Below, in pieces: positions 19,605 through 30,987 of a stretch of 64,000 nucleotides of DNA. Both the position numbers and the translations under genes were made by a program. The notes under the pieces were generated by a model. That model was not told where the DNA came from and made no database searches. It saw only the letters and a program-made list of their open reading frames with translations. Origin of the DNA: a virus (Duplodnaviria > Caudoviricetes); IMG/VR virus record IMGVR_UViG_2772190661_000001, positions 63,706 to 127,705 of that record; one strand, written 5' to 3'. Positions within the stretch are counted from its first letter, which is position 1, and every line of letters starts with the position of its first letter.

Positions 19605-20671
19605 CAGGCGTCGGCCTGCTGCTCGCTAGCCCGGTTCAGGGCACGGATGAGCTGGTCGGCGTCGGCCTGGGTCAGCTCGTCGGTCGACTCCACCGACAGC
19701 CCGCCGAGCTCCTTCGCGACGATCGCCATCCGGGCGGCGTGGTTGTCGTCGCCCGCGTAGCCGAGCTTCGTCCACAGGCGGGTCAGGGCGGCCTTCTGCT
19801 GCGGCTGGATCGGTCCCGGCGCGGCCGGCGGGCCCGACACCGGCCGGTCTGCCGCGGGCGGTCCGGACACCGGGTCGATGACCTCACCCTCGAAGACCGG
19901 GTGGTCGGTGGCCTCGGCCGGGTCGGTGCCGGGGTTGATGTCGACACGGACACCGTCGTCGGCAGCGAGGGCAACCGCCAGCTCGGTCGACTTCGGCATG
20001 TACTTCGCGAGCTGCCGGACGACGGACTTGTGGGCCATGCCCTCGAAGTGGTCGACCCACGGGCCGAAGACCTTGCCGTCCTTGTTCTTCGCGGTCGCGT
20101 TCTTGTCCCGGTACTTGAGCATGTCGCGGTGGGACATGACGAAGAACGCGTGCCCGCCGCCGACGAACTTCACGACCGCGTAGTAGGCGATCGGGTCGCC
20201 GCGGTCCTCGAACAGGTTCGGCTTGTGCTTCAGGGTGTCGGCGAGCCCGTACTCGACGTCGAACTCGTCGTTCGCGTACACGGTCCGGGCGATCAGCGAC
20301 TGGATCTTCCCGGAGCGGTGGGCCAGCTCGATCAGGCCCTGGTAGCCGATCACGAGCTGCGCCTTGTAGCCCTTGTTCTTGCCGTCCCAGAACGGCAGCA
20401 GCCACGCGTGCCCGAGCACACCCGGCCGGAGCCCCAGCTGGGCGCACGTCATCAGCGACCCGAGGACCGAGGTCTCCTCGCACCTGGCGAGGTTCTTCGT
20501 CATCCGCATCGCCGTCAGGGCGTCCCGGACGAGCTGGACGGCCTCTGCGCCCTTCGGCATCGCGGCCTGGAACTGGGACTCCATCGACCGGATCCGGTCG
20601 GAGATCGAGCTGGTGGCGACACCACCGTTCTCACGGCGGGTAGCAAGGGCGGCAGCAGCAGCGTTGGTCAT
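19604..20671 (-). CDS. recT: RecT family single-strand annealing protein
   Basis: AQLGLRPGVLGHAWLLPF, AQLVIGYQGLIELAHRSG, W..HFEGMAHKSVVR. Confidence 0.95.
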   Translation of the reverse strand: MTNAAAAALATRRENGGVATSSISDRIRSMESQFQAAMPKGAEAVQLVRDALTAMRMTKNLARCEETSVLGSLMTCAQLGLRPGVLGHAWLLPFWDGKNKGYKAQLVIGYQGLIELAHRSGKIQSLIARTVYANDEFDVEYGLADTLKHKPNLFEDRGDPIAYYAVVKFVGGGHAFFVMSHRDMLKYRDKNATAKNKDGKVFGPWVDHFEGMAHKSVVRQLAKYMPKSTELAVALAADDGVRVDINPGTDPAEATDHPVFEGEVIDPVSGPPAADRPVSGPPAAPGPIQPQQKAALTRLWTKLGYAGDDNHAARMAIVAKELGGLSVESTDELTQADADQLIRALNRASEQQADA

Positions 20672-21657
20672 TTGGCGAGATCCTTTACGGAGAGGGAGCG
20701 GCTGGGGGATTTGCGGTAAAGCTCGGGGTTCGGCATCGGCACGCCGGCGGCCTCGGCCAGGTCGGCGGCGAGACGCGGCCAGTCGACGTGCCCGGTCTTG
20801 CTCGACCAGGCGACGGCGACCCGGCCGCCGAGCTGGCCTTTCTCGTTCTCGGCGAGGAGCTTCTTCAGCCCGGCGCCCGCGGTCTCCTTCGCGGCCTTGC
20901 CCGCCTTCTCGGCCTCAAGGCCGGCGAGGTAGGCGGCGTGGAGTTCCTCGGCATCGGTGCCGTCGAGGTCGACCTGCTTGCCGTTCGGGACCGGGTAGAG
21001 CGCGGCGAGTGCCTTGTTGTCGACCGCGCCGAGCGGCGGCTCGATCCCGTCGACGATGTGCTCGTCACGCCACGCGGCGACCTGCTCGACCATGTCCGCC
21101 TCGACGTCCAGGTCCCGGACGACCGTGCGCCGGATCAGGCCGTGGCCGGCAGCGAGCGCGATCAGTTCGACGGCGGGCCGGTCGAGGACGTGCATGGACC
21201 AGCGGCACTGGAACTCGTAGCCGAGCGGAATCCCGCCGTCGTCCCAGCCCTTCGCCGCACCCCAGCCCGAGGCGAGCCCGGCGGTCTTCGCCTCGACGAG
21301 CCGGCCGTCGGCGACCTCGGCGTCAGGAGAACACAGCCGCCACCCGTGGACCGGGTGCGCGTACATGCGATGGCCGGTCCGGCCGACGGGGGCGCCGATG
21401 AGCCGGGCGGCCTGGTCGACGATCCACGGCTCCAGCGCGGTCCCGAGATCCGATGCGGCGGTCGCGTCGTCGTCGGCCCAGGACCGGACGCCGGTCTTCT
21501 CCGCCCACACGTCCCACGGCGTCCGGTAGCTGGAGAAGCCGAGCACCGCGGAGATGTCCGAGCCGCCGAGCCCGCGGGTGCGGGCCAGGCGCCATTCGTC
21601 GTCGGTGGCGTCCCAGCTGGAGACCGGGACTGCGAGGGCGGGCATGGTCGCGGTCAT
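20668..21657 (-). CDS. YqaJ / lambda-exonuclease family (RecE partner)
   Basis: W...RTRGLGGSD, SPDA, EAKT, YEFQC. Confidence 0.93.
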   Translation of the reverse strand: MTATMPALAVPVSSWDATDDEWRLARTRGLGGSDISAVLGFSSYRTPWDVWAEKTGVRSWADDDATAASDLGTALEPWIVDQAARLIGAPVGRTGHRMYAHPVHGWRLCSPDAEVADGRLVEAKTAGLASGWGAAKGWDDGGIPLGYEFQCRWSMHVLDRPAVELIALAAGHGLIRRTVVRDLDVEADMVEQVAAWRDEHIVDGIEPPLGAVDNKALAALYPVPNGKQVDLDGTDAEELHAAYLAGLEAEKAGKAAKETAGAGLKKLLAENEKGQLGGRVAVAWSSKTGHVDWPRLAADLAEAAGVPMPNPELYRKSPSRSLSVKDLAK

Positions 21658-21938
21658 CGCCGAGCCTCCTGGTTCAGACCGTCGGCGACGGACACCATGA
21701 GCGCCCGAAGCCGGCGGTTCTCAGCGCGCAGCGACTCGACCTCGATCCGCAGGTCGGCGATGTCCTCGCGCAGGTCCGCCTCGCGGCAGTCACAGCCGAC
21801 GCGGTGGTCGGCGCACGCCGTGTAGCGCGGGTCCAGGGTGTTGACCGGCGGCGTGTAGTCGCTGGTCGAGCCGTCCGAGAACGTGACGGTGTCGGTACGG
21901 ACGGGCTTTCGTTCGGCGAGGGACGGCAGGCGGGTCAC
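21654..21938 (-). CDS. Phage hypothetical protein (coiled coil)
   Basis: Coupled ORF. Confidence 0.55.
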   Translation of the reverse strand: MTRLPSLAERKPVRTDTVTFSDGSTSDYTPPVNTLDPRYTACADHRVGCDCREADLREDIADLRIEVESLRAENRRLRALMVSVADGLNQEARR

Positions 21939-22126
21939 AGGTCCACCGCCCGCTGGAAGCGCGCGTCGGCGGCGATCTCGGCGCTGACGCACGCGGGCTG
22001 CTCACACCCGGACAGCAGGCCGGCGACGGGCCGCTGGCAGTACGGGCAGGTGACCGACTGCTGGGCGGCGCGCGCGGTCCGGACCCGCTCGATCAGGCCG
22101 GTGACGGCCGTGGTCAGCGCGGTCAC
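21935..22126 (-). CDS. Phage hypothetical protein (CPYC)
   Basis: Coupled ORF. Confidence 0.5.
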   Translation of the reverse strand: MTALTTAVTGLIERVRTARAAQQSVTCPYCQRPVAGLLSGCEQPACVSAEIAADARFQRAVDL

Positions 22127-22404
22127 AGCGCCACCACCAGCGCGGCAGCGGTCTCCTCGACCAGGGCGGCCCGGTCCAGCACCTCGACGTGGGTGAGGCT
22201 GACCGCGCCGGAGCAGCCCGAGATCCAGGCGACCGCGGTGTGCCCACCGAGGACCGTGGACGGGTGGTAGACCCGACCAACGCCGGACGGCGGGCCCTGG
22301 CGGCCACTCCGCCAGTAGCGGACCAGCATGCCGACCGGCGCCATCTCGTTGAACGCGTCCGCGGCGTCCTGCGCGGTGGCGGGGTTCTTCAGCTCGACGG
22401 TCAC
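22123..22404 (-). CDS. Phage hypothetical protein
   Basis: FN...PVG..VRY...VLGGHTAVAWI.G.SGAVSLTHV, a recurrent phage family. Confidence 0.6.
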   Translation of the reverse strand: MTVELKNPATAQDAADAFNEMAPVGMLVRYWRSGRQGPPSGVGRVYHPSTVLGGHTAVAWISGCSGAVSLTHVEVLDRAALVEETAAALVVAL

Positions 22405-22763
22405 AGCGCCACCGCCGTCGCGTCCCACGCGGCCTGGATCCGGGCGTGCGAGGCAGCCTGCGCCGCCGACCGGGCCGGGTCCGCGGCCAGCTCGGCGCGG
22501 GCCTGCTCGGCGTCGGCGCGCCGCTTTGCCTGCCCGGCCTGCAGCGTCTCGACGGCGGCAGCCCGCTCGTCCTCGTTCAGGTGCGCAACCGCGTCACGGC
22601 GGGGCTTGTGGAACTGCACCTGATAGCCGGTGCGGCTGCGGCAGTGGATACCCGGCCTGGCGTTGCAGGTCTTGCACGTCTCGGTGATCGGGGCCAGCGC
22701 TGCCGCGGCCACGCGGCGGTAGAGGAGGAATGCGGCGCTCGGGCGCTCCGGGGCGATCGTCAT
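22401..22763 (-). CDS. Zinc-finger phage protein
   Basis: CKTCNARPGIHC...FHKPR. Confidence 0.65.
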   Translation of the reverse strand: MTIAPERPSAAFLLYRRVAAAALAPITETCKTCNARPGIHCRSRTGYQVQFHKPRRDAVAHLNEDERAAAVETLQAGQAKRRADAEQARAELAADPARSAAQAASHARIQAAWDATAVAL

Positions 22764-23194
22764 GCCGCACCGCCGACGAGCATCTGCGCGCGGACGAACA
22801 GCACCTCGTCGTCAGCCCACGACGTCGGACCGGACCGGGCCGCGACGAACTCGCGGACGATACCCTCCAACGCCAGCTCGCGCGCCGACGGCACCGGGGC
22901 GGGCTCGCCGCGGTCGTCCGGGCCGCCGTCGAAGTAGGCGCCGGCGCACTTCGGCGACCCGAACAGCATCCCGGCCGGGTCTTCGAACACGGTCCGCCCG
23001 TCGTGCCCGGACAGGTCGGCGTCGGTCGCGTCCAGGAATTGGCGGCCGCACTGGCAGAGGTCGTCGGCGAACACGATCATCGTCCCGGCCGGGCGGGCGG
23101 CGAGGTCCGCGGCGATCTCCGGGTTCGGGTGCCAGGCGACACACCGGACCTCGACCGGGGTGGCGGGACGGCGGGCGTGCTTCGGGGCGGTCAT
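22760..23194 (-). CDS. Phage hypothetical protein
   Basis: Coupled ORF. Confidence 0.5.
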   Translation of the reverse strand: MTAPKHARRPATPVEVRCVAWHPNPEIAADLAARPAGTMIVFADDLCQCGRQFLDATDADLSGHDGRTVFEDPAGMLFGSPKCAGAYFDGGPDDRGEPAPVPSARELALEGIVREFVAARSGPTSWADDEVLFVRAQMLVGGAA

Positions 23195-23628
23195 GCCGCC
23201 ACCTCCTGGGTGTCGGCGGTCCACGGGCCGGCGTGCACACTGCGAGACACGGCGACCACGCCCGGGATCAGAACGGCCAAGTCACGTGCGGCCCGCTCGT
23301 CCTGCTGCGGCCGAACGACGCCGTTCGGGAAGATGGCCGCCCACTCGACCTGGGTGGTCGAGCCGTTCGGGGTGGGCGTCGCGGCCCAGCCCTTCGGGAT
23401 CGCGGACAGCTGCAGGCCGACGGCGGCGAGTGCGGCCCGTAGGTCCTGGATGGAGGCGCGGCGCTCGCCGGCCTCGTGGGAGCGGTGCGTCGGGGCGAGC
23501 TTGCCGATCATCGCGGCGAACTTGTTGATGGACAGGCCGCGGGCTTCGCGCTGCTCGGCGACGAGGCGCCAGAGCGGGTCGGGCCCGGTGATATTGGTGG
23601 TTGTCGGTGTAGTCTGCTCAGCGAGCAT
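23191..23628 (-). CDS. XRE-family HTH protein
   Basis: REARGLSINKFAAMIG...HEAGERR. Confidence 0.75.
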   Translation of the reverse strand: MLAEQTTPTTTNITGPDPLWRLVAEQREARGLSINKFAAMIGKLAPTHRSHEAGERRASIQDLRAALAAVGLQLSAIPKGWAATPTPNGSTTQVEWAAIFPNGVVRPQQDERAARDLAVLIPGVVAVSRSVHAGPWTADTQEVAA

Positions 23629-23699
23629 CTCGGCGTCCTCTCAGGTGGACGGTTGAGCTGTGAAGCCCTGGCCGGTCGGACGGCCGGGGCTTCCTTGCG

Positions 23700-24035
23700 T
23701 TAAGCCGTGGCGACGCGCTTGGCGCGGCTACGGCCGCGGGTGCGCATGCCGGCGGCGACCTGGCGCATGGTGTTGCTGTCCGCGATCCGCTTCGCTTCCG
23801 CGGCGTTGGCCGCTTCGGTCGCCTGCCGGGTGTAGGCCTCGGCAGCCTTGTAGATCTGCTCGCGGGTCATGCCGTACGTGCCCTTGCGGTTTACGTGGTC
23901 GATGCGGCCGGCCTTGCACTCGTCCATGACGGAGCGGACGGTCCAGCCGGTTAGGTACTCGACCTGTTCCAGGGTGTAGACGAACGGGTCCGGGGCGCCG
24001 GGGATGAATAGCGGCTGCTCGATGACGTCGGTCAT
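23700..24035 (-). CDS. Excisionase-like HTH protein
   Basis: YTLEQVEYLTGWTVRSV...GRIDHV; second gene of the early operon. Confidence 0.65.
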   Translation of the reverse strand: MTDVIEQPLFIPGAPDPFVYTLEQVEYLTGWTVRSVMDECKAGRIDHVNRKGTYGMTREQIYKAAEAYTRQATEAANAAEAKRIADSNTMRQVAAGMRTRGRSRAKRVATA

Positions 24036-24274
24036 GCCGCGGCCGCCGTCGGCCCGGCCTTGAGGAGGTCGTCGTAGCTGACGCCGAGGGCGTCGGTGAT
24101 GCGGCCGTAGGTCGCGGGCTTCACGGTGGGCCGCTGGCCGCGTTCGATCTGCGCGACGTAGGAGACGGACAGGCCGATCGTGTCGGCGAGCTGGGTGATC
24201 GTGAGGCGCTTCCGCTGGCGCTGTTGGCGCATCTTCGCCCCGTCGACGCGGGGGCTGGCGTGCATGGGCTCCAT
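24032..24274 (-). CDS. Cro-like XRE HTH regulator
   Basis: RQRKRLTITQLADTIGLSVSYVAQIERG; first gene of the early operon. Confidence 0.85.
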   Translation of the reverse strand: MEPMHASPRVDGAKMRQQRQRKRLTITQLADTIGLSVSYVAQIERGQRPTVKPATYGRITDALGVSYDDLLKAGPTAAAA

Positions 24275-24282
24275 GAAGCAGA

Positions 24283-24311
24283 AGCGTACAGGATTGAGCA
24301 GGATTGAGCAG
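24283..24311 (-). promoter_or_regulatory. Early promoter -10 (TACGCT) with tandem 10-bp operator-like repeat
   Basis: CAGGATTGAG x2 (24289-24308) adjoining TACGCT, 8 nt before the cro ATG (near-leaderless). Confidence 0.5.
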
Positions 24312-24398
24312 CACTTGTCGCCAGCCTGTCGCCCGAGCGTGTTGCGGCCGGCCGCGCGCTGCAGTCAGGCAGCTCTGCGCAGCAGAAACCAGGGCAGC

Positions 24399-24463
24399 AA
24401 AAAACGCCGTGCCCCCACGGTGCCCCTAGAGTTTCTAGGAGCCCCATGAGGGCACGGCGTTTT
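24399..24463 (-). terminator. Long intrinsic terminator after tRNA-Arg
   Basis: 30-bp arms with 3 G-U pairs and 1 mismatch in the minus-strand RNA, ending in a U-tract. Confidence 0.8.
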
Positions 24464-24469
24464 AGCAGG

Positions 24470-24542
24470 TGCCTCTGGAGAGATTCGAACTCCCGACACC
24501 CGGATCCGTAATCCGGTGCTCTATCCGCTGAGCTACAGAGGC
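24470..24542 (-). tRNA. tRNA-Arg(ACG)
   Basis: GCCTCTG acceptor, CCGGA-TT-ACG-GA-TCCGG, GTTCGAA T-loop; no encoded CCA. Confidence 0.95.
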
Positions 24543-24543
24543 G

Positions 24544-24637
24544 TGGAGGAGAGTGAGGGATTCGAACCCTCGGCGGAGGTGTTCGCCCCCGCTACGGTGT
24601 AGCAAACCGCTGCCTTGGACCGCTCGGCCAACTCTCC
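24544..24637 (-). tRNA. tRNA-Ser(GCT)
   Basis: GGAGAGT acceptor, GCGGT-TT-GCT-AC-ACCGT, long variable arm, encoded CCA. Confidence 0.93.
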
Positions 24638-24654
24638 TTGCATTGCGAGAAACG

Positions 24655-24726
24655 CTGCGGGCGGAGGATTCGAACCTCCATCGTCCGGGTCAGAGCCGGA
24701 TGTGCTGCCGGTTGCACCAGCCCGCA
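24655..24726 (-). tRNA. tRNA-Gln(CTG)
   Basis: U1-A72, TCCGG-CT-CTG-AC-CCGGA. Confidence 0.9.
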
Positions 24727-24765
24727 CCGGGGCGTCCCGGGCCGTGATCGACACGGCCCGGGACG

Positions 24766-25203
24766 TCACAGGGCCATTGCCGCCCAGGTGGGGGCGACCG
24801 GCCGGAATCGCAGGGGCATGCGCGCCTCGACAGGCGTGCGGTCACCCTTGCGCTGGTTACAGGCGCCGCACGCGGCGGCCGTGTTCGCCCATGAGTTGCG
24901 GCCGCCGCGCGAGCGGGGCATCACGTGGTCGATCGTCGAGGCGTGGCCGCCGCAGTAGACGCAGCGACGGCCGTCCCGGACCAGCACGCCGGCCCGCGAC
25001 CAGCCGGGGCCACGCGAGTGCCGCCAGCGCGTCACCACGTAGCTGACCAGCCGCACCACGGTCGGCACCGGCCAGACGCCTATCTGCGAGTCGGGGTGCG
25101 ACTCGTGAACCTCCGCCACGCGGCGCACCAGCATCCGCACCGCGTGGCGGAGACTGACCCGGTGCAACGGGCCGAGGTCGGCGTTCAGCACCAGCACGTC
25201 CAC
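24766..25203 (-). CDS. HNH endonuclease within the tRNA operon
   Basis: VLVLNA N-terminus; RDGRRCVYCG...TIDHVMPRSRGG.NSWAN...C..CN..K. Confidence 0.95.
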   Translation of the reverse strand: MDVLVLNADLGPLHRVSLRHAVRMLVRRVAEVHESHPDSQIGVWPVPTVVRLVSYVVTRWRHSRGPGWSRAGVLVRDGRRCVYCGGHASTIDHVMPRSRGGRNSWANTAAACGACNQRKGDRTPVEARMPLRFRPVAPTWAAMAL

Positions 25204-25236
25204 CGGATCCTCCTTTCATGGGTTTGTCGAGGTGAG

Positions 25237-25307
25237 AGCGGTTACGGGGAGTCGAACCCCGGTCTGCTGCATGGCAAGCAGCCGCACTGCCGTTGTGCTA
25301 CAACCGC
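25237..25307 (-). tRNA. tRNA-Gly(GCC)
   Basis: GCGGTTG acceptor, GCTGC-TT-GCC-AT-GCAGC, U73. Confidence 0.92.
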
Positions 25308-25311
25308 ATCG

Positions 25312-25386
25312 TCGGGATGCCCGGATTCGAACCGGGGGCCTTCCGCTCCCAAAGCGGACGCGCTGACCAAGCTGCGCCACATCCCG
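25312..25386 (-). tRNA. tRNA-Pro(TGG)
   Basis: CGGGATG acceptor, TCCGC-TT-TGG-GA-GCGGA, A73. Confidence 0.94.
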
Positions 25387-25454
25387 TACTTAACCATCCG
25401 CTATGGAATTCTCAATCATCATTTCCGTGCGCATAAAATGCGCAGGACAAAGCG

Positions 25455-25527
25455 CACGGGCGGCAGGAGTCGAACCCGCAACCTACGGTTTTGGAGGCCG
25501 TTGCTCTACCAGTTGAGCTACACCCGT
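25455..25527 (-). tRNA. tRNA-Trp(CCA)
   Basis: ACGGGTG acceptor, ACGGC-CT-CCA-AA-ACCGT, G73. Confidence 0.92.
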
Positions 25528-25537
25528 ATGGGATACG

Positions 25538-25571
25538 AAAAACCGCCCGGTCCGATGTCGGACTCAGGCGG
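25538..25571 (-). terminator. Attenuator-type intrinsic terminator upstream of the first tRNA
   Basis: CCGCCTG-A-GTCCG-ACAT-CGGAC-CGGGCGG-TTTTT, 10 nt before tRNA-Trp. Confidence 0.8.
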
Positions 25572-25593
25572 CGCGTCTAGCCGGGTAGGCGTA

Positions 25594-25695
25594 CTACCCC
25601 AGGCGGCGCCGCTTGTCGGGACCTCGGACGGATGAACTCGGCTGCAGGCGCCAGGCAACACTCTTCGCCATTACTACGTTCTTCGACATCGCCAT
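25594..25695 (-). CDS. 33-aa leader peptide (uORF)
   Basis: AAGGAGG RBS then MAMSKNVVMAKSVAWRLQPSSSVRGPDKRRRLG*, ending 22 nt before the terminator stem. Confidence 0.65.
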   Translation of the reverse strand: MAMSKNVVMAKSVAWRLQPSSSVRGPDKRRRLG

Positions 25696-25736
25696 CGCCT
25701 CCTTCGTTTCGTCCGTCTCGCTCGGTGCTGGAATAC

Positions 25737-25774
25737 ACGTTAGTGACCCCGCACAACACGCACAACCAATTAAA
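25737..25774 (-). promoter_or_regulatory. SigA/HrdB promoter with upstream AT tract (WhiB7/WblC-like)
   Basis: TTTAATT-GG-TTGTGC-N17-TAACGT on the minus strand. Confidence 0.6.
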
Positions 25775-25827
25775 CGCGATTCCCACGGTACGCCCGCGGG
25801 AGCACCCGACAATCGCTGGTAGGGTGC

Positions 25828-26394
25828 GTGATCATGCGGCTCGGGAAGCAGATGCGCGCCCGCCGGAGCAGTGAGCTCGCGGCCCTGCGCGCCGAGGTCG
25901 CCGCGCTCCGCGCCGAGGTGGCGGCGCTCCGCCCGTCCCCGCCGCCGCCCGCCGACGACCTCGCACAGGATTACCGCACCTGGCGGGACGGCCCGCTGCT
26001 CCGGCTCGCGAAGGTGCTCACCCGCCGCGCCGGGTCCGACGCGCCCGCACCGGCCCGCGGCGCCGCGATGCACGCGCTCTGCCGGGTGCTCCTGACCCCG
26101 GCCACCGACGCGGAGACCCGGCACCGCCTGGTCGGCGACACCGTCACCGACCTGCTGGGCGACACCTCGTGGCGCAACGACGCGGCGCTCGTCCGTACCC
26201 TCATCGAGGCTCGTGACGGCGCCACACCGCTGCGCGACGCCGTCGCCGTGCACGAGTGGCTCTGGCCGGCCGGGGGCGTCGCGCTCGACCCGGCCCGGCA
26301 CGACATCCTGCCCGGCTCCGAGGGCGGCCGCGTCGTCGCGACCGCCGCCCCGGGCCTCCGTGGTGCCGTGTTACCGCTCGTCGTGGCCGGGTGA
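25828..26394 (+). CDS. Hypothetical protein with GrpE-like C-terminus
   Basis: N-terminal coiled coil; G..LDPARHD...GRVV....PGL...VL..V resembles the GrpE beta domain. Confidence 0.5.
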   Translation: MIMRLGKQMRARRSSELAALRAEVAALRAEVAALRPSPPPPADDLAQDYRTWRDGPLLRLAKVLTRRAGSDAPAPARGAAMHALCRVLLTPATDAETRHRLVGDTVTDLLGDTSWRNDAALVRTLIEARDGATPLRDAVAVHEWLWPAGGVALDPARHDILPGSEGGRVVATAAPGLRGAVLPLVVAG

Positions 26395-26398
26395 GCCG

Positions 26399-28348
26399 CT
26401 ACTGCTGATCCATGGTGGCGATCGCGAGACCGTTACCGAACGTGACCGACCACACCTGAGACCGCTCGGCATCCGACGGATCGGCCATGTCGGCCGCGAA
26501 GTCGTTGAGCGCGTAGGGGCCGCCGTTGATCGTGCGGATCTCGGCCTCCTCCGCGGGCGCGATCCACAGCGGACCCAGCCCGTCGCTGTTGCCCGCGTTC
26601 TTGTCCGCCGCCTCGCGGATCCGGAGCTTGAGGTGGCCGCCGGCCGTGCTCGCGGAGTCGACGACCATCAGGAACGGGCCGGGCCCGCTGTAGTCGGTGC
26701 CGGGCAGCTCCAGGTACGCGTCCGGGTCGTCCGGGTTGGCCTCCTTGACGGCCTGCACCACGCGCGGGTCGAGCGGCTCGCCCCGGTTGTTCCGCGGGCC
26801 GGTGCCGACCGGCGTGGCGCTGGGGGTGGCGGCGGGCGTGTTCGACGGAGCGCCGCTGGTCGGGCCGTTCTGCGGCGACCCGATCTTCTCGTCGCCACGG
26901 TTCCCGTAGGCGACATATCCGGCGCCCGCCGCGGCCAGCACCAGCAGGATCACCAGCGCGACCGGCCAGCGGCGCTTCTTCCTCGGCGGCGGACCGGCCG
27001 GCACCGCCGCGGCCCCGGTCGCCCTGCGCCCCGGCCTGCCCGGCACCTCGAACTGCGAGTACGGCCGCGTCGGCGCGAGCCCGTCGTCGGCCTGCGGGGC
27101 CCGCGACGGCACCGGCTGGGCCGGCGCACCGCGCGGGGGTGTCAACGGCGCCATAGTGACCGGCGGGGCGTGCAGCACGTTCGCCAGGCCCGGACCGGAC
27201 GGCGACGCCGGATAGGCCGGCGGCGCGGAGACCTGGCCCGCGAGCGCCGCGGCCACCTGCTCCCGCGTCACGCGCGCGGTCCGGTCCGCGTCCAGGCCAC
27301 CCACGGTCTCGGCCGTGACCGCGCCGTTCGCCACCGCCAGCTCCGGCTGCTCGATCACGGCCGGCGCCACGCTCAGCGCGCGGTGCAGCATGGACGCGAC
27401 CAGCGGCACCCGGCTCGCGCCGCCGACCAGCAGCACACCCTTCAGCGCGGACGCCTCCACGCCGGCCTCGCGCAGCACCAGGCGCGTGGTCGCCACCGTA
27501 CGGTCGATCACCGGCCGGGCCAGCGCCTCGAACTGCTCGCGGCCGAGCGGCGCCTCCACCTCCAGCAGCGGCAGGTGGATGTGGGTGGCCGAGGACCGGG
27601 ACAGCATCTCCTTGCCGGTACGCACGTCCGCCCACAGTGCACGCGAGGCCCGCCGGTCCGCCGCGTCGGCCGGCGCGGTCAGGCGCGCCCAGGCCGCCGG
27701 GTCCTTCGGCGCGTACACCGCGCCGAGGTGCGCGACGATCGCCGCGTCCAGGTCCAGGCCACCGCCGTCGGACAGCCCCGACGTGGCCAGCAGTGCGAAA
27801 CCGTCCCCGGTCCGCCGGATCACCGACGCGTCGTACGTGCCCGCGCCCAGGTCACAGACGACCACGCTGCCGCCGACCGGGATCGTGGTCCCGGCCGTGC
27901 TCGCGAAGTACGCCGCCGCCGCGACCGGCTCGCTGACCAGCCGCACGTTGCGCAGGCCCGCACGCGCCGCCGAGTCCAGCAGCACGTCCCGCCGCCGCTT
28001 GCCCCAGGCCGCCGGGTGCGTGATCGTCACCCGGTCCGGCGTGCCCTGCACCTGGTCCGCCACCCGCCGCAGCACGGCCGCGAACATGTCCGGCACCGCC
28101 ACCTCGACGCCCCCGAGCAGCACGGACTGCTCGTCGATGCGCTGCTTCGGGTACGGCTCATAGCTCTCCGGCGCCGTCCGGGCCGCGTGCGCCGCATCCG
28201 GCCCCACCAGCAGCCGGCCGCCCGGATCCGCACAGACCCCCGACGGCAGCGACGGCGCGCCGTCGAACAGCACCGGGCGTACCCCCAGCGGACCATCGAA
28301 CACTGCCACCGTGCTGGAGGTGCCGAAATCTATGCAGAGGTGCGTCAC
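26399..28348 (-). CDS. Hsp70-family ATPase with Pro-rich linker, TM helix and extracytoplasmic domain
   Basis: IDFGTSST, EPVAAA, DLGAGTYD, LVGGASRVP; KKRRWPVALVILLVLAAAG TM. Confidence 0.9.
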   Translation of the reverse strand: MTHLCIDFGTSSTVAVFDGPLGVRPVLFDGAPSLPSGVCADPGGRLLVGPDAAHAARTAPESYEPYPKQRIDEQSVLLGGVEVAVPDMFAAVLRRVADQVQGTPDRVTITHPAAWGKRRRDVLLDSAARAGLRNVRLVSEPVAAAAYFASTAGTTIPVGGSVVVCDLGAGTYDASVIRRTGDGFALLATSGLSDGGGLDLDAAIVAHLGAVYAPKDPAAWARLTAPADAADRRASRALWADVRTGKEMLSRSSATHIHLPLLEVEAPLGREQFEALARPVIDRTVATTRLVLREAGVEASALKGVLLVGGASRVPLVASMLHRALSVAPAVIEQPELAVANGAVTAETVGGLDADRTARVTREQVAAALAGQVSAPPAYPASPSGPGLANVLHAPPVTMAPLTPPRGAPAQPVPSRAPQADDGLAPTRPYSQFEVPGRPGRRATGAAAVPAGPPPRKKRRWPVALVILLVLAAAGAGYVAYGNRGDEKIGSPQNGPTSGAPSNTPAATPSATPVGTGPRNNRGEPLDPRVVQAVKEANPDDPDAYLELPGTDYSGPGPFLMVVDSASTAGGHLKLRIREAADKNAGNSDGLGPLWIAPAEEAEIRTINGGPYALNDFAADMADPSDAERSQVWSVTFGNGLAIATMDQQ

Positions 28349-28750
28349 CGAACCAAGATAGCGGCCCCTCGCCCCACGCGCGTCCCAGGTGGACCGCCCT
28401 CCCCGGCCGTCCCGCAGGTCCTGCACCCACGATCGACTCGTCGCTGACCTGCTGCGACGGCGGCAGCATCCAGCGGGCATGCCCTCGGTGATCGCGGACC
28501 GCCGGTCCGGCACGGTGTCCGCGGTGCCGTAGGCGTGGGTCGGCCTCGCCCGGTCCACCCCGTCAAGATCTTCAAGCACGGACCAGAGCCCTGACCAGGG
28601 GGTACGACATCCCGCCGCGCACCGGCACGCGCGGCAGCAAACGTGAGCGGCGGCGGGAGTCGCGTGCTCTTCGGTGACCAGCGGCGGCACCGGCTCCGAT
28701 CGGGGATCGGAAGCGGAGCGCCAGCGGAGTCTTCCGAACCCCGGAGGTTG

Positions 28751-28872
28751 GCCCGCGGGAGCAACGCTGCGGGACCACGCCGGAAGCGGGCACGTCGTGG
28801 GGTCCGGGGCTCGGGCCCCGGGGAAACACAGCGCCCGCGGGAGCAACGCTGCCGGACCACGCCGGAAGCGGG
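28751..28872. repeat. Two 40-bp direct repeats (1 mismatch) with a 42-bp spacer
   Basis: GCCCGCGGGAGCAACGCTGCSGGACCACGCCGGAAGCGGG at 28751-28790 and 28833-28872. Confidence 0.85.
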
Positions 28873-28880
28873 AAAGCGGC

Positions 28881-29228
28881 CTATCGGGTCTGGATCTTGC
28901 GGCCTCGGGCGCCCAATGGAATCTGAGCGGGGTCGACGGCGACCGAGGTCAGGTTCTTGTAGGCGTAGCCGCGGGAGGTCAGCCACTCGTCGGCGAGGAG
29001 TTCGGCGCGGGTGGCGGTGACGTCGAGGTCCTCGTCGTCGTCGGCCTCGACGAGGTAGCGGAACGTGAAGAACGGGCGGGCGGCCAGGTCGTAGGCGAGG
29101 TGGCCCTCGGGCGTGTAGGCCGTGGTGAGGAAGTCACGGCCGGCGGCGTCGGCGGTCAGGGCCGCGGTCTGCTCCGGGGTCAGTCGGTCGAAGGCGCCAC
29201 GCACGGTCACTCGGATGCCACGGCTCAT
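28881..29228 (-). CDS. DUF6204 family protein
   Basis: [10 protein letters not shown]...[22 protein letters not shown]. Confidence 0.8.
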
Positions 29229-29282
29229 GGCGCGACCCTATCGAGCCCCGGAGGCCGGTCGCATCCGATTATCGTCGTCGGC

Positions 29283-29405
29283 ATGTCTGTGCTCGTGGCT
29301 TTCAGTGTGTCGCCGCTCGGAGCGGGCGAAGAGGTCGGGACGATCGTGGCGGAGGCGGTACGCGTGGTGCGCGCCTCCGGGCTGCCGAACCGGACCGACG
29401 CAATG
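29283..29405 (+). pseudogene. 5' fragment of an MTH1187/YkoF-like thiamine-binding protein, split by integration (attL near 29400-29410)
   Basis: [13 protein letters not shown]...[20 protein letters not shown], then loss of family similarity and a composition shift just before the integrase. Confidence 0.85.
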
Positions 29406-29451
29406 CCGCCTAAACTGCATCTCATGTTTCCCCAGATAGAGAGCGAATCGT

Positions 29452-30987
29452 GTGATGCGAAATCCCTCGGATTGGGCAGGTAGCACTGACAGCGGCTCTC
29501 CCAAGTACGCCGTGGCCTACATACGGGTGTCCCGGGTGGGCGGACGGGACGATGACCTCATCTCTCCGGAGTTGCAGCGATTCCAGATCGATGAGCTTGC
29601 CCGGCGCGAAGGGATCAAGATCGTCGAGGAGATGCAGGATCTAGACCGGTCCGGACGCGACTTCACCAAACGTCGCGTCGAGGAGATCATCGACGGAATC
29701 CGGAACGGCAAGTGGCAGTACGTCCTGCTCTGGAAGTGGTCCCGCTGGGGCCGCAACATGCGCCAGTCTCAGCTGTACCTGGGTCGGGCTGAGGACGCTG
29801 GCGGCGTCGTACGCGCAGCGACGGAGGATTTCGACCCGGGAACAACTATCGGCCGCTTCAGCCGAGACCAGATGCTGTCCTTCGCGCAACTGCAATCGGA
29901 CATGATCGGTGACAGTTGGCGTGATACCCAGGACCGTCGTCGCCGCAATGGCCTACCTCATAACGGTCGGCCTCGGTTCGGGTACGAGTACAGCCGGAAG
30001 ACCGGCTATACCCCTCATCCTGAAACCGGGCCACTGCTGGCGAGCTTCTATGAGCGGTATGTTGCCGGGGAGTCCTTCTACAAGCTCGTCCTGGAGTTGA
30101 ACCGCAGCGGCATCCAGCCGCCCCAGACGGATGTTTGGAGTCAGACGGCGCTCTCGGTTCTCATGGATACGGGTTTCGCGGCTGGGCTGATTCGAGAGAA
30201 GTCTTCCCAACAGCGTCGCCGTGAGGGCAAGGCCACCAGGCGCACGCTCGACTCGTACGATATCTGGCGCGTAGGCGCACATGAGCCGTTGATTTCAGAG
30301 CCGGTCTGGGTTCGGTATCTCGAACGCCGCAAGCAACAGGCGAAGCTTCCTCCGAGGTCTCGGTCGCCGAAGTACGCCTTGTCGTCTGTCATGCGGTGTG
30401 CACTGTGCGGAGCGTCGATGACAGTGATGCATGGAAGGAACGGGCGTCAGTGGTCGTGTTCGAAGGCACGAGCGTCCCGGCACCACGAGCCGAACTACAT
30501 TTCGGACGTCCGGGCAAGTCAAGAGGCTTTGGACTGGTTGTTGTCCAATGTGCCGGAGAAGTCTAGTGGGGCGGTAACGGAGGAGGCTCGTCGGCTGGAG
30601 CGAGGTCGTGTGGCACGTGACCGCGTGGCCCGGCTGTCCGAGCAGGACAAGAAGATCAAGGGGCGGCGAGCGAAGCTGATCGACCTGTACTCCGATGATT
30701 TGGTGACGCGCGAGGAGTTTGAGGAGAGGCGTGCATCGCTTCTGGTGGAGTTGGAGGTGGTGCAGGCTGCCCTCGCTGAGGCGCGAGAGGATGAGCGGCG
30801 TTCGGGGGTAAGTTATGTCCGGGCCTTTTCGACACTGGCTCAGGAGTGGGATCTTTGGGAACCGGATAAGCGGCGGGAGGCATTGCTTCAGTTGGTGGGT
30901 AGTGTGACGGTTCTCCCGAAGAGTGCGAACGAATCTAAGCGACTCGTCGTTGTTCCAATATGGGATAGAACCGGCGAGGTGGGATAG
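29452..30987 (+). CDS. Large serine recombinase (integrase)
   Basis: AYIRVS catalytic Ser, D..SG, SRWGR, recombinase domain, CALCG...C zinc ribbon, coiled coil. Confidence 0.95.

What the first reader, a model, noticed from the sequence alone, without database searches (positions are those of the whole stretch)
24399..25774. Leader-peptide-attenuated tRNA + HNH operon, a candidate translation-stress tRNA rescue system
Seen (minus strand): promoter TTGTGC-N17-TAACGT with an AT tract 2 bp upstream of -35; RBS AAGGAGG; a 33-codon uORF; an intrinsic terminator placed 10 nt BEFORE the first tRNA; tRNA-Trp, Pro, Gly; HNH nuclease; tRNA-Gln, Ser, Arg; a 30-bp terminator. The uORF end (CCGCCUGG) can pair with the terminator 3' arm (CCGGGCGG), and the stop codon lies in its own GGGUAG/CUACCC hairpin, so mutually exclusive folds exist. 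Known: WhiB7/WblC binds an AT tract just upstream of -35, whiB7/wblC is controlled by uORF-mediated attenuation, and HNH genes accompany actinobacterial tRNA arrays. Inference: a normally silent back-up tRNA operon that switches on when ribosomes stall (antibiotics or anticodon-nuclease attack).
Basis: partly seen in the sequence, partly recalled or inferred. Interest (0 to 1): 0.85.

Follow-up and report, generated by a model that had tools for sequence, protein, structure and literature searches.

The report
Ribosome-sensing switch gating spare tRNA genes
A conserved promoter, mini-gene and stop/go RNA switch sits ahead of a block of spare tRNA genes and a nuclease gene, so the cell (or a phage) probably makes these tRNAs only when protein synthesis falters; I found no paper describing this control for tRNA genes.

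Summary
All six tRNAs, the HNH gene, the promoter, the SD, the 33-codon uORF and the terminator 10 nt before tRNA-Trp are at the stated places.

The leader is not chance. Forty-four distinct homologous leaders precede tRNA arrays in Micromonosporaceae. A model of its 3' part hits 100 of 151 family genomes and IMG/VR viral contigs. It also precedes a stand-alone HNH gene and an RtcB RNA-ligase gene.

Conserved features:
- an A/T tract, -35, 17-18 nt spacer and TANNNT promoter, matching the published WblC/WhiB7 consensus;
- an SD and a uORF whose stop lies 41-53 nt before the terminator 3' arm;
- an antiterminator pairing the last uORF codons (GGYGGCG) with the terminator 5' arm.

Most likely a ribosome that keeps pace with RNA polymerase allows termination, and a delayed ribosome gives read-through.

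- its antiterminator pairing is not the conserved one;
- codon matching to the array is weak;
- the 3' "30-bp terminator" belongs to a ~92-kb prophage integrated into the array's tRNA-Arg, which cut off five further tRNAs.

There are no expression data. Earlier notes of this scan describe similar switches on other DNA.

The parts
25768..25774 (-). A/T tract (TTTAATT), 2 bp upstream of the -35; candidate WblC/WhiB7 AT-hook site
   Evidence: Sequence. An A/T-rich hexamer 2-4 nt upstream of the -35 occurs in 39/44 homologous leaders against 0.6 expected. The genome's own whiB7 promoter has ATTAATT-CGT-TTGCCT.
25760..25765 (-). -35 hexamer TTGTGC
   Evidence: TTGNNN is conserved, with a 17-18 nt spacer.
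25737..25742 (-). -10 hexamer TAACGT (TANNNT)
   Evidence: CACTAACGTGTATTCCAGCACCGAGCGAGAC is conserved in same-genus loci.
25698..25704 (-). Shine-Dalgarno AAGGAGG of the uORF
   Evidence: SD-like motif in 42/44 leaders against 13% background.
25594..25695 (-). uORF, 33 codons plus TAG (MAMSKNVVMAKSVAWRLQPSSSVRGPDKRRRLG)
   Evidence: A uORF of 33-62 codons is present in 44/44 leaders, 25 of them 42-43 codons, with the stop 41-53 nt before the terminator 3' arm.
25606..25612 (-). Antiterminator 5' strand GCGGCGC, inside the last uORF codons
   Evidence: It is the complement of 25574-25568. The homologous GGYGGCG:CGCCRCC helix is 92% paired in 34 leaders, with one CG to UA compensation. It forms in the partial-transcript MFE of this leader.
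25583..25599 (-). Small hairpin GGGUAG/CUACCC holding the stop codon (apical part of the antiterminator)
   Evidence: MFE fold. The inner helix is 62% paired across leaders, with compensatory changes.
25542..25574 (-). Intrinsic terminator hairpin 25572-25542. Its 5' arm, together with 25574-25573, is also the antiterminator 3' strand (25574-25568)
   Evidence: Fold. 94% of cells are paired across 34 leaders.
25538..25542 (-). U-tract of the leader terminator, 10 nt before tRNA-Trp
   Evidence: The terminator-to-tRNA distance is 5-46 nt in most leaders that are followed directly by tRNA-Trp, which leaves no room for a separate promoter.
25454..25527 (-). tRNA-Trp(CCA), accessory copy
25311..25386 (-). 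tRNA-Pro(TGG), accessory copy
25236..25307 (-). tRNA-Gly(GCC), accessory copy
24766..25203 (-). HNH nuclease gene (145 aa), always between tRNA-Gly(GCC) and tRNA-Gln(CTG) in related arrays
   Evidence: Pfam result. 70-95% amino-acid identity across genera. The HNH core resembles the Cas9/IscB type.
24654..24726 (-). tRNA-Gln(CTG), accessory copy
24544..24637 (-). tRNA-Ser(GCT), accessory copy
24468..24542 (-). tRNA-Arg(ACG), accessory copy; its 3' 45 nt are an att core
24469..24513 (-). 45-bp att core (attR), repeated perfectly 91.8 kb away at C4:312341-312385
   Evidence: BLAST result. Sister species have the array uninterrupted.
24399..24463 (-). Long hairpin plus T-run terminator on the prophage side of the att site; it is not the array's native end

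Best explanation
This is a member of a family-wide control cassette with two tiers, which gates accessory (second-copy) tRNA genes and an HNH gene. Tier 1 is a promoter with the WblC/WhiB7 architecture, an A/T tract just upstream of the -35, so initiation is probably boosted by the actinobacterial translation-stress activator. Tier 2 is a ribosome-dependent transcription attenuator. The transcript opens with a strongly SD-led uORF whose last codons (GCGGCGC here, GGYGGCG in most relatives) are complementary to the 5' arm of an intrinsic terminator that ends 10 nt before tRNA-Trp. If the first ribosome keeps pace with RNA polymerase and occupies the last codons or the stop codon when the terminator region is made, the antiterminator cannot form. 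The terminator then folds and transcription stops. If the ribosome is late, stalled anywhere earlier in the uORF, or never loaded, the uORF end pairs first with the terminator 5' arm and polymerase reads into tRNA-Trp, Pro, Gly, HNH, Gln, Ser and Arg. The switch therefore reports general translation speed rather than the supply of one amino acid. Shown: the anatomy, its conservation, the alternative pairings, the accessory status of the tRNAs and the associated gene set. Inferred: the direction of the switch, WblC dependence and the inducing conditions. In this strain a ~91.8-kb prophage later integrated into the array's tRNA-Arg. The operon now ends at a phage terminator, and tRNA-Pro(GGG), two tRNA-Val, tRNA-His and tRNA-Met are stranded 92 kb away.
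For: Anatomy at the stated coordinates. Each of the six tRNAs has a divergent housekeeping counterpart elsewhere in the genome. There are 44 distinct homologous leaders ahead of arrays of 4-37 tRNAs, and the full-length leader profile gave no hit in the stand-alone HNH loci of that set. A uORF is present in 44/44, with 25 at 42-43 codons, an SD in 42/44 and the stop 41-53 nt before the terminator 3' arm. The antiterminator outer helix is 92% paired against 51% or less for slid controls. A CG to UA change there also converts the terminator pair GC to AU. In folding simulations the partial transcript forms the antiterminator in 38/44 leaders. The naked full leader is bistable, with the terminator in 27 and the antiterminator in 15. 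With a ribosome footprint on the stop codon, the terminator forms in 37/44. The terminator lies 5-46 nt from the first tRNA in most leaders followed directly by tRNA-Trp, so the tRNAs can only be reached by read-through. The promoter composite occurs in 39/44 against 0.6 in shuffles and matches the published WblC consensus (PMC7157823). The genome encodes WhiB7 with an AT-hook and a similar promoter. The covariance model hits 100/151 family genomes in 47/69 genera, against 2 weak hits in 150 genomes of other families. Of 20 further hits, 17 precede tRNA arrays, one precedes HNH alone and one precedes RtcB (Pfam 4.8e-128). In S. coelicolor, rtcB and six tRNA genes are listed as WblC-activated; the rtcB row (SCO3299) carries values of 319.9 and 248.4. 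In Anabaena a silent tRNA array, an HNH gene and rtcB are co-induced by translation stress (PMC8421152).
Against: There are no transcript data for this organism. Substitutions in the uORF show no codon periodicity (0.22/0.19/0.20), so translation is inferred from the SD, the start and the stop placement, not from coding selection. One alternative frame is also open in 26/44 leaders, as expected in GC-rich DNA. Covariation is limited because the helices are almost invariant. In 15/44 leaders the naked full-length MFE is the antiterminator, so basal read-through could be high. The window's own leader is a divergent member: nhmmer E 1e-14, and it was not among the matches of the covariance model, which was built without its subgroup. 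The window's A/T tract (TTTAATT) departs from GAAAWY.
Confidence: 0.65

Rival explanations
1. Codon-specific tRNA-depletion sensor. The uORF is written in codons read by the downstream tRNAs, so the array is induced only when those particular tRNAs are scarce or cleaved (trp/his-type logic applied to tRNAs).
For: The window uORF contains TGG, CGC, CGA, CAG, CCG, AGT and GGT, each readable by one of the six tRNAs. Trp is common at codon 3 (TGG in 21/36) and tRNA-Trp usually comes first in the array. On average uORF codons are slightly more often readable by the array than HNH codons, 0.55 against 0.50, higher in 30/44.
Against: The excess is small and the loci are related. In the window it is 0.31 against 0.27. 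The six-tRNA set is an accident of the prophage cut, because the native array had about 11 tRNAs. Codon 3 varies TGG/CGG/AGG, which suggests a nucleotide constraint rather than an amino-acid one. The RtcB leader has only 16 codons and the second array of this genome has an Ala-rich uORF that shares no evident peptide similarity. There are no runs of a regulatory codon.
Confidence: 0.15
2. Phage regulatory module. The cassette belongs to large temperate actinophages, and the chromosomal copies are prophage remnants. It serves to time phage tRNA, HNH and RtcB expression during infection, for example to outlast host tRNA-cleaving defences, rather than to provide a host stress response.
For: Twenty-six IMG/VR viral contigs (17-166 kb) carry the same array type: Trp first, 16-36 tRNAs, and HNH at 61-77% identity. 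The leader profile hits 13 of them. Most of those keep the TTGNNN-N17/18-TACNGT promoter, and where an open frame could be read it ends in GRWR-type residues. HNH homologues lie beside tRNA clusters in large actinophages. Array position differs between species of the genus. A phage uses the array's own tRNA-Arg as its att site.
Against: This is compatible with the best explanation and is not an alternative mechanism. In this genome the array is flanked on one side by ordinary chromosomal-looking genes. The leader is present in two thirds of the family genomes sampled, often in several copies. IMG/VR contigs may include mis-called host DNA.
Confidence: 0.3
3. No switch. The uORF is a small independent gene or a spurious frame, the hairpin is simply its terminator or an insulator, and the tRNAs are transcribed by leaky read-through or from elsewhere.
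For: There is no codon periodicity. The single-sequence fold is no better than shuffles. The generic promoter scan found nothing.
Against: The uORF stop, the antiterminator strand and the terminator keep fixed mutual positions across 44 leaders while uORF length varies from 16 to 62 codons. Complementarity of the uORF end to the terminator 5' arm is retained with a different sequence and register in the window's subgroup. There is no room for a promoter between the terminator and the first tRNA. The same cassette recurs before functionally related genes.
Confidence: 0.07

Closest known systems
whiB7/wblC leader of Actinobacteria (WhiB7-activated promoter, long 5' leader with uORF and intrinsic terminator)
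   Same: Same host group and same two tiers: an A/T tract just upstream of the -35, then a uORF, then a Rho-independent terminator. This genome's own whiB7 shows this layout. The covariance model of the array leader weakly hit a whiB7 leader in another family (E 7e-5).
   Different: The regulated product is a block of tRNA genes plus HNH (elsewhere RtcB), not a transcription factor. The uORF is about 42 codons against about 125 in this genome's whiB7 leader. There was no detectable sequence homology by nhmmer. That whiB7 uses uORF attenuation is taken from my own knowledge and from titles seen; I did not read those papers here.
WblC regulon of Streptomyces coelicolor (PMC7157823)
   Same: Promoter consensus GAAAWY, 3 bp, TKGMNN, 16-19 bp, TANNNT. 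The WblC-activated gene table lists six tRNA genes and rtcB (SCO3299, with values 319.9 and 248.4).
   Different: Those are single housekeeping-type tRNA genes with values of about 2-6 in the same table. The paper describes no tRNA array, no HNH gene (zero occurrences) and no attenuator.
Anabaena sp. PCC 7120 L-array (trn operon), PMC8421152
   Same: A normally silent accessory tRNA array induced by translation stress and co-regulated with an HNH gene and rtcB, which is the same gene trio.
   Different: Control there is through direct repeats over the -10 and TSS (a presumed repressor). The words 'attenuat', 'leader' and 'terminator' do not occur in that paper. It is a different phylum.
Leader-peptide attenuators of amino-acid operons (trpL, hisL, ilvL; actinobacterial ilvB and trp leaders)
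   Same: A uORF, a terminator, and an antiterminator whose formation depends on ribosome position. A ribosome at the end of the uORF favours termination.
   Different: There is no run of regulatory codons and no clear anti-antiterminator (1:2) element. The P1 hairpin inside the uORF is 87% paired and may be a pause site. The output is tRNA, not biosynthetic enzymes.
tRNA array units of Mycobacterium and mycobacteriophages (PMC5966550; PMC4758250)
   Same: Horizontally moving clusters of supernumerary tRNAs, with HNH as the most widespread embedded gene.
   Different: Those papers do not mention a leader, promoter or terminator. The window array has 6 tRNAs, about 11 before the insertion, which is below the 20-gene definition.

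Membership tests
Ribosome-dependent (leader-peptide) transcription attenuator | Short ORF with a ribosome-binding site in the 5' leader | tested here: met
   AAGGAGG lies 2 nt before the ATG, with a 33-codon frame. An SD is present in 42/44 homologues and a uORF in 44/44.
Ribosome-dependent (leader-peptide) transcription attenuator | Intrinsic terminator between the uORF and the regulated genes | tested here: met
   Hairpin 25572-25542 plus five U residues. 94% paired in 34 leaders.
Ribosome-dependent (leader-peptide) transcription attenuator | Mutually exclusive antiterminator whose 5' strand lies within the footprint of a ribosome at the end of the uORF | tested here: met
   25612-25606 pairs with 25574-25568. 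92% paired against 51% or less when slid, with one compensatory change shared with the terminator.
Ribosome-dependent (leader-peptide) transcription attenuator | Regulatory codons in the uORF that match the signal sensed | tested here: not met
   There are no codon runs. The match to the array's tRNAs is 0.55 against 0.50 in the control ORF. There is no codon periodicity.
Ribosome-dependent (leader-peptide) transcription attenuator | Condition-dependent read-through shown experimentally | not testable with these tools
   Only soil metatranscriptome contigs were on offer.
WblC/WhiB7-activated promoter | A/T-rich motif about 3 bp upstream of the -35, 16-19 bp spacer, TANNNT -10 | tested here: met
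   TTTAATT-GG-TTGTGC-N17-TAACGT. Present in 39/44 homologues against 0.6 in shuffles. The consensus is from PMC7157823.
WblC/WhiB7-activated promoter | Host encodes WhiB7 with a C-terminal AT-hook | tested here: met
   The protein at C10:~155020 ends ...WGVWGGE...RKRPRGRPRK.
WblC/WhiB7-activated promoter | WhiB7 binding and WhiB7-dependent induction | not testable with these tools
   This needs ChIP or EMSA and a whiB7 mutant.
tRNA array unit / L-array (at least 20 tRNA genes, at least 2 per kb; PMC4758250) | At least 20 tRNA genes at high density | tested here: not met
   Six tRNAs here and about 11 before the prophage cut. Relatives under the same leader reach 36-37.
T-box riboswitch | Match to the T-box covariance model (specifier loop, T-box sequence) | tested here: not met
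   No Rfam hit other than tRNAs at E up to 1 in 20000-30000.
HNH (His-Me finger) nuclease | HNH domain with Cys4 zinc site and catalytic D-H...N...N | tested here: met
   Pfam HNH_5 and HNH. C81, C84, C112, C115, D92, H93, N107 and N116 are invariant.

The most novel reading that the evidence does not exclude
The cassette is a mobile 'translation-rescue regulon' shared by Micromonosporaceae and their large phages. A host-WhiB7-responsive promoter plus a ribosome-coupling attenuator would switch on spare tRNA sets, the RtcB RNA ligase and a conserved HNH nuclease together when translation is damaged, for instance by tRNA-cleaving defence or attack systems or by ribosome-targeting antibiotics. 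Phages would carry it to outlast host anticodon nucleases, and lysogens would keep it as a stress organ. The HNH protein would then have a cellular role in this response rather than being a homing endonuclease.
Probability: 0.3. Interest if true: 0.85.

Novelty: new variant of a known kind. Interest (0 to 1): 0.7.

Why it matters
Accessory tRNA arrays are widespread in bacteria and phages, but how they are controlled is known for only one cyanobacterium. Here a defined cis-element, testable by mutation, would explain how actinobacteria and their phages keep spare tRNAs, an RNA ligase and a nuclease silent until translation falters. It would link tRNA arrays to the WhiB7 intrinsic-resistance response. 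It would also extend leader-peptide attenuation from amino-acid and resistance genes to tRNA genes. The element is compact (about 240 nt) and portable, so it could serve as a reporter of ribosome-polymerase coupling in actinomycetes.

Tried and rejected
- **Public RNA runs.** Only soil metatranscriptome contigs with small shares were offered. Laid at 90% likeness they cover tRNA pieces and parts of HNH from relatives and nothing of the leader. Contigs cannot show ends or levels, so no conclusion was drawn.
- **Generic sigma-70 and terminator scan.** It found no promoter and missed the leader terminator, so it was not informative for this GC-rich actinomycete.
- **Single-sequence fold z-score.** It was unremarkable at -0.52.
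- **RNAalifold on the first raw alignment.** It recovered only the terminator and four pairs of P1, so the helices had to be defined by hand and counted.
- **P2 hairpin inside the uORF.** It is 67-71% paired and was left as uncertain.
- **Coding selection on the leader peptide.** None was detected.
- **Codon matching to the array.** It is weak.
- **T-box or any Rfam family.** No hit.
- **Homology of the array leader to this genome's whiB7 leader.** Not detected by nhmmer.
- **The divergent 188-aa ORF upstream (25828-26394) as a general partner.** It is conserved only within the genus and has no family hit.
- **AlphaFold model of HNH.** The HNH core is confident, but the N-terminal 65 residues have pLDDT 43-56, so no fold search was run.
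It is possible in this sequence because the uORF end repeats the terminator 5' arm motif. It would still leave a hairpin abutting the U-tract, and it is not the pairing kept in relatives.
Full report
**What is in the window**

All score 58-67 bits against Rfam tRNA. The 145-aa ORF between Gly and Gln is an HNH nuclease. The sequence shows:

- A/T tract TTTAATT (25774-25768), then GG
- -35 TTGTGC (25765-25760), then a 17-nt spacer
- -10 TAACGT (25742-25737)
- SD AAGGAGG (25704-25698)
- a 33-codon uORF (25695-25594)
- a hairpin around the stop codon
- a terminator hairpin (25572-25542) with U-tract 25542-25538, 10 nt before tRNA-Trp

The MFE fold shows the stop-codon hairpin and the terminator. 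As a single sequence this is not statistically remarkable: the fold z-score is -0.52 and the generic scanner found no promoter. The case therefore rests on comparison with other loci.

**The tRNAs are spare copies**

ARAGORN on the whole 11-Mb assembly finds, for each of the six anticodons, a different and more canonical gene elsewhere. The window copies differ from these at many positions.

**The operon as drawn is not the native unit**

In four species of the same genus the array runs on after tRNA-Arg into Pro-GGG, (Ser-CGA), Val-GAC, Val-CAC and His. In this genome those genes lie 92 kb away on the same strand. A perfect 45-bp direct repeat of the 3' part of tRNA-Arg is present at C4:404214-404258 (window 24469-24513) and at C4:312341-312385.

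The interval holds an XRE/Cro-like gene, RecT, YqaJ, DnaB, DUF5131, GIY-YIG and a phage zinc-finger protein. A 426-aa ORF sits beside the far repeat. I take it to be the integrase from its position, but I did not scan it. So a ~91.8-kb prophage integrated into the array's own tRNA-Arg.

**The leader is conserved**

A DNA search of 200 genomes of the family found the Gly-HNH-Gln core in many genera. Arrays there have up to 37 tRNAs and almost always start with tRNA-Trp. A profile of the region upstream of tRNA-Trp found 62 leaders, 45 of them distinct, in the loci fetched by the genome search and the search for related loci. A uORF could be delimited in 44 of the 45. The profile gave no hit in the stand-alone HNH loci of that set.

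Record titles place these loci in Catenuloplanes, Actinoplanes, Asanoa, Phytohabitans, Plantactinospora, Virgisporangium and other Micromonosporaceae, plus Cryptosporangium and an Umezawaea MAG.

An 88-position covariance model of the uORF end, antiterminator and terminator hit 100 of 151 family genomes (47 of 69 genera), with 1-4 copies each. It hit only 2 of 150 genomes from other families of the class, and one of those was a whiB7 leader. The model did not report the window's own leader, whose subgroup was left out when it was built. It did report a second leader in this genome, at C20:18557-18646, ahead of Leu-GAG, Leu-CAG, Ala-CGC, Tyr and Cys.

**Promoter**

In 39 of 44 leaders a hexamer with at least 4 A/T lies 2-4 nt upstream of T[TG]GNNN, followed by a 16-19 nt spacer (nearly always 17-18) and TANNNT. 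Shuffled sequences give 0.6 such cases. For at least two of the remaining five, extra sequence between promoter and uORF seems to have pushed the promoter out of the scanned stretch.

This is the architecture published for WblC-activated promoters of S. coelicolor: GAAAWY, 3 bp, TKGMNN, 16-19 bp, TANNNT (PMC7157823). The genome encodes a WhiB7 orthologue with an AT-hook. Its own promoter reads ATTAATT-CGT-TTGCCT-N18-TAGCCT and is followed by a long uORF and a terminator.

**The uORF**

| Feature | Result |
|---|---|
| Start codon | ATG in 39, GTG in 5 |
| SD-like motif | 42/44, against 13% of background windows |
| Length | 33-62 codons; 25 of 44 are 42-43 |
| Stop position | 41-53 nt before the terminator 3' arm |

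Substitutions show no codon periodicity (0.22/0.19/0.20) and GC3 is 0.79 against about 0.92 for genes. The peptide as such is therefore not under selection. What is kept is the frame, its end point and particular nucleotides. I read this as selection on where the ribosome goes, not on the peptide it makes.

**The switch**

The last codons of the uORF (consensus GGYGGCG, 5-11 nt before the stop) are complementary to the terminator 5' arm (CGCCRCC). On 34 leaders this helix is 92% paired, against 36-51% when the partner is slid. Two leaders changed C-G to U-A there, and the same base change turns the terminator pair G-C into A-U. In the window's subgroup the sequences and register differ (GCGGCGC 25612-25606 with GCGCCGC 25574-25568), but the complementarity is kept. 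The stop codon sits in the apical part of this helix.

Folding each leader gave the following:

- The transcript made just before the terminator 3' arm emerges has the antiterminator in 38/44.
- The naked full leader is bistable, with the terminator in 27 and the antiterminator in 15.
- With 28 nt around the stop codon masked as a ribosome footprint, the terminator forms in 37/44.

A further hairpin inside the uORF (P1, codons about 10-17) is 87% paired, with compensatory changes at 6 of 9 pairs. It could be a pause site that synchronises ribosome and polymerase; this is conjecture.

The terminator is 5-46 nt from the first tRNA in most leaders followed directly by tRNA-Trp, so the tRNAs can only be reached by read-through.

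**What is sensed**

Codon matching between the uORF and the array is weak: 0.55 of uORF codons are readable by the array's tRNAs against 0.50 of HNH codons, and 0.31 against 0.27 in the window. The six-tRNA set is an artefact of the prophage cut. The RtcB leader has a 16-codon, apparently leaderless uORF that still ends GRWRA-stop at the same place. I therefore favour a general sensor of ribosome-polymerase coupling over a codon-specific one.

**What the cassette controls**

I fetched 20 further model hits that were not chosen for HNH. Seventeen precede tRNA arrays, one precedes a stand-alone HNH gene, one precedes RtcB (Pfam 4.8e-128) and one precedes an unidentified region.

This trio matches two published systems. 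In S. coelicolor, rtcB (SCO3299, with table values of 319.9 and 248.4) and six tRNA genes are listed as WblC-activated. In Anabaena a silent tRNA array, an HNH gene and rtcB are co-induced by translation stress through promoter repeats (PMC8421152). Neither paper, nor the Mycobacterium array papers, mentions a leader or attenuator ahead of tRNA arrays. Two full-text searches for such a report found none.

**Phage link**

Twenty-six IMG/VR viral contigs carry the same array type, with HNH at 61-77% identity. The leader profile hits 13 of them. Most of those keep the promoter, and several keep an open frame with the same C-terminal residues. HNH homologues also sit beside tRNA clusters in large cultured actinophages. 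The cassette is therefore shared between phages and chromosomes. In this genome one flank of the array looks like ordinary chromosomal genes.

**HNH protein**

It is 70-95% identical across genera, with an invariant zinc site and catalytic residues, and its core is of the Cas9/IscB HNH type. The N-terminal half folded with low confidence. Its role is unknown. Its conservation, and the fact that it has its own leader in some genomes, argue for a role in the response rather than for a decaying homing enzyme. This is inference.

**Limits and provenance**

- There are no expression data.
- Loci from related genomes are not independent.
- E-values of the model are rough.
- Genomes G138, G106, G065 and G197 are flagged unpublished. 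L016 (from G138) is one of the 44 leaders, and these genomes are counted in the tallies. No conclusion depends on them.
- Earlier AI notes of this scan report similar uORF-gated tRNA arrays on other DNA. I used them as leads only.

Noticed in passing
window 1-24467, continuing outside the window to C4:312386: A ~91.8-kb prophage is integrated into the array's tRNA-Arg(ACG). It is bounded by a perfect 45-bp direct repeat (window 24469-24513 and C4:312341-312385). It carries XRE/Cro-like, RecT, YqaJ, DnaB, DUF5131 and GIY-YIG genes. A 426-aa ORF at C4:312522-313802 beside the far repeat is presumably the integrase; I did not scan it.
   Followed up: yes
G000 C20:18557-19128 (locus L143): The same genome has a second leader (uORF MSGQKLLAAAAAARLDLDCLYQALLADRGGYLS, antiterminator, terminator) ahead of tRNA-Leu(GAG), Leu(CAG), Ala(CGC), Tyr and Cys. 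It has no HNH gene and no obvious WhiB7-type promoter.
   Followed up: partly
L155:280-1640 and L149:260-890: The same leader family precedes an RtcB RNA-ligase gene, with a 16-codon and apparently leaderless uORF. In another genome it precedes a stand-alone HNH gene.
   Followed up: partly
L144:1200-1700: The covariance model of the array leader weakly matches (E 7e-5, full length) the attenuator of a whiB7 gene in a different actinobacterial family. This could be a distant relationship or convergence of the two leaders.
   Followed up: no
G000 C10:154340-155030: The whiB7 locus of this genome has an AT-tract promoter, a uORF of about 125 codons and a terminator ahead of a WhiB7 protein with an AT-hook.
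   Followed up: partly
window 26399-30984: Upstream of the array lie an 815-aa protein with a partial Hsp70/MreB-like ATPase domain, a DUF6204 protein and a large serine recombinase (29452-30984). GC content dips to 0.60-0.65 at 29-32 kb, which suggests another mobile element or island edge.
   Followed up: no
window 25828-26394 (+): A divergent 188-aa ORF with high GC3 and no family hit is conserved next to the leader only within the genus (55-64% identity).
   Followed up: partly
window 25400-25450: The only long AT-rich spacer of the array, between tRNA-Trp and tRNA-Pro, contains a small hairpin followed by ATTTTATGCG, which the terminator scan flagged (25457-25440). Its function is unknown.
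   Followed up: no
phage records (e.g. Microbacterium phage Big4, 90552-91608): HNH homologues (37-44% identity) lie within about 1 kb of tRNA clusters in large cultured actinophages of Microbacterium, Gordonia and Arthrobacter.
   Followed up: no
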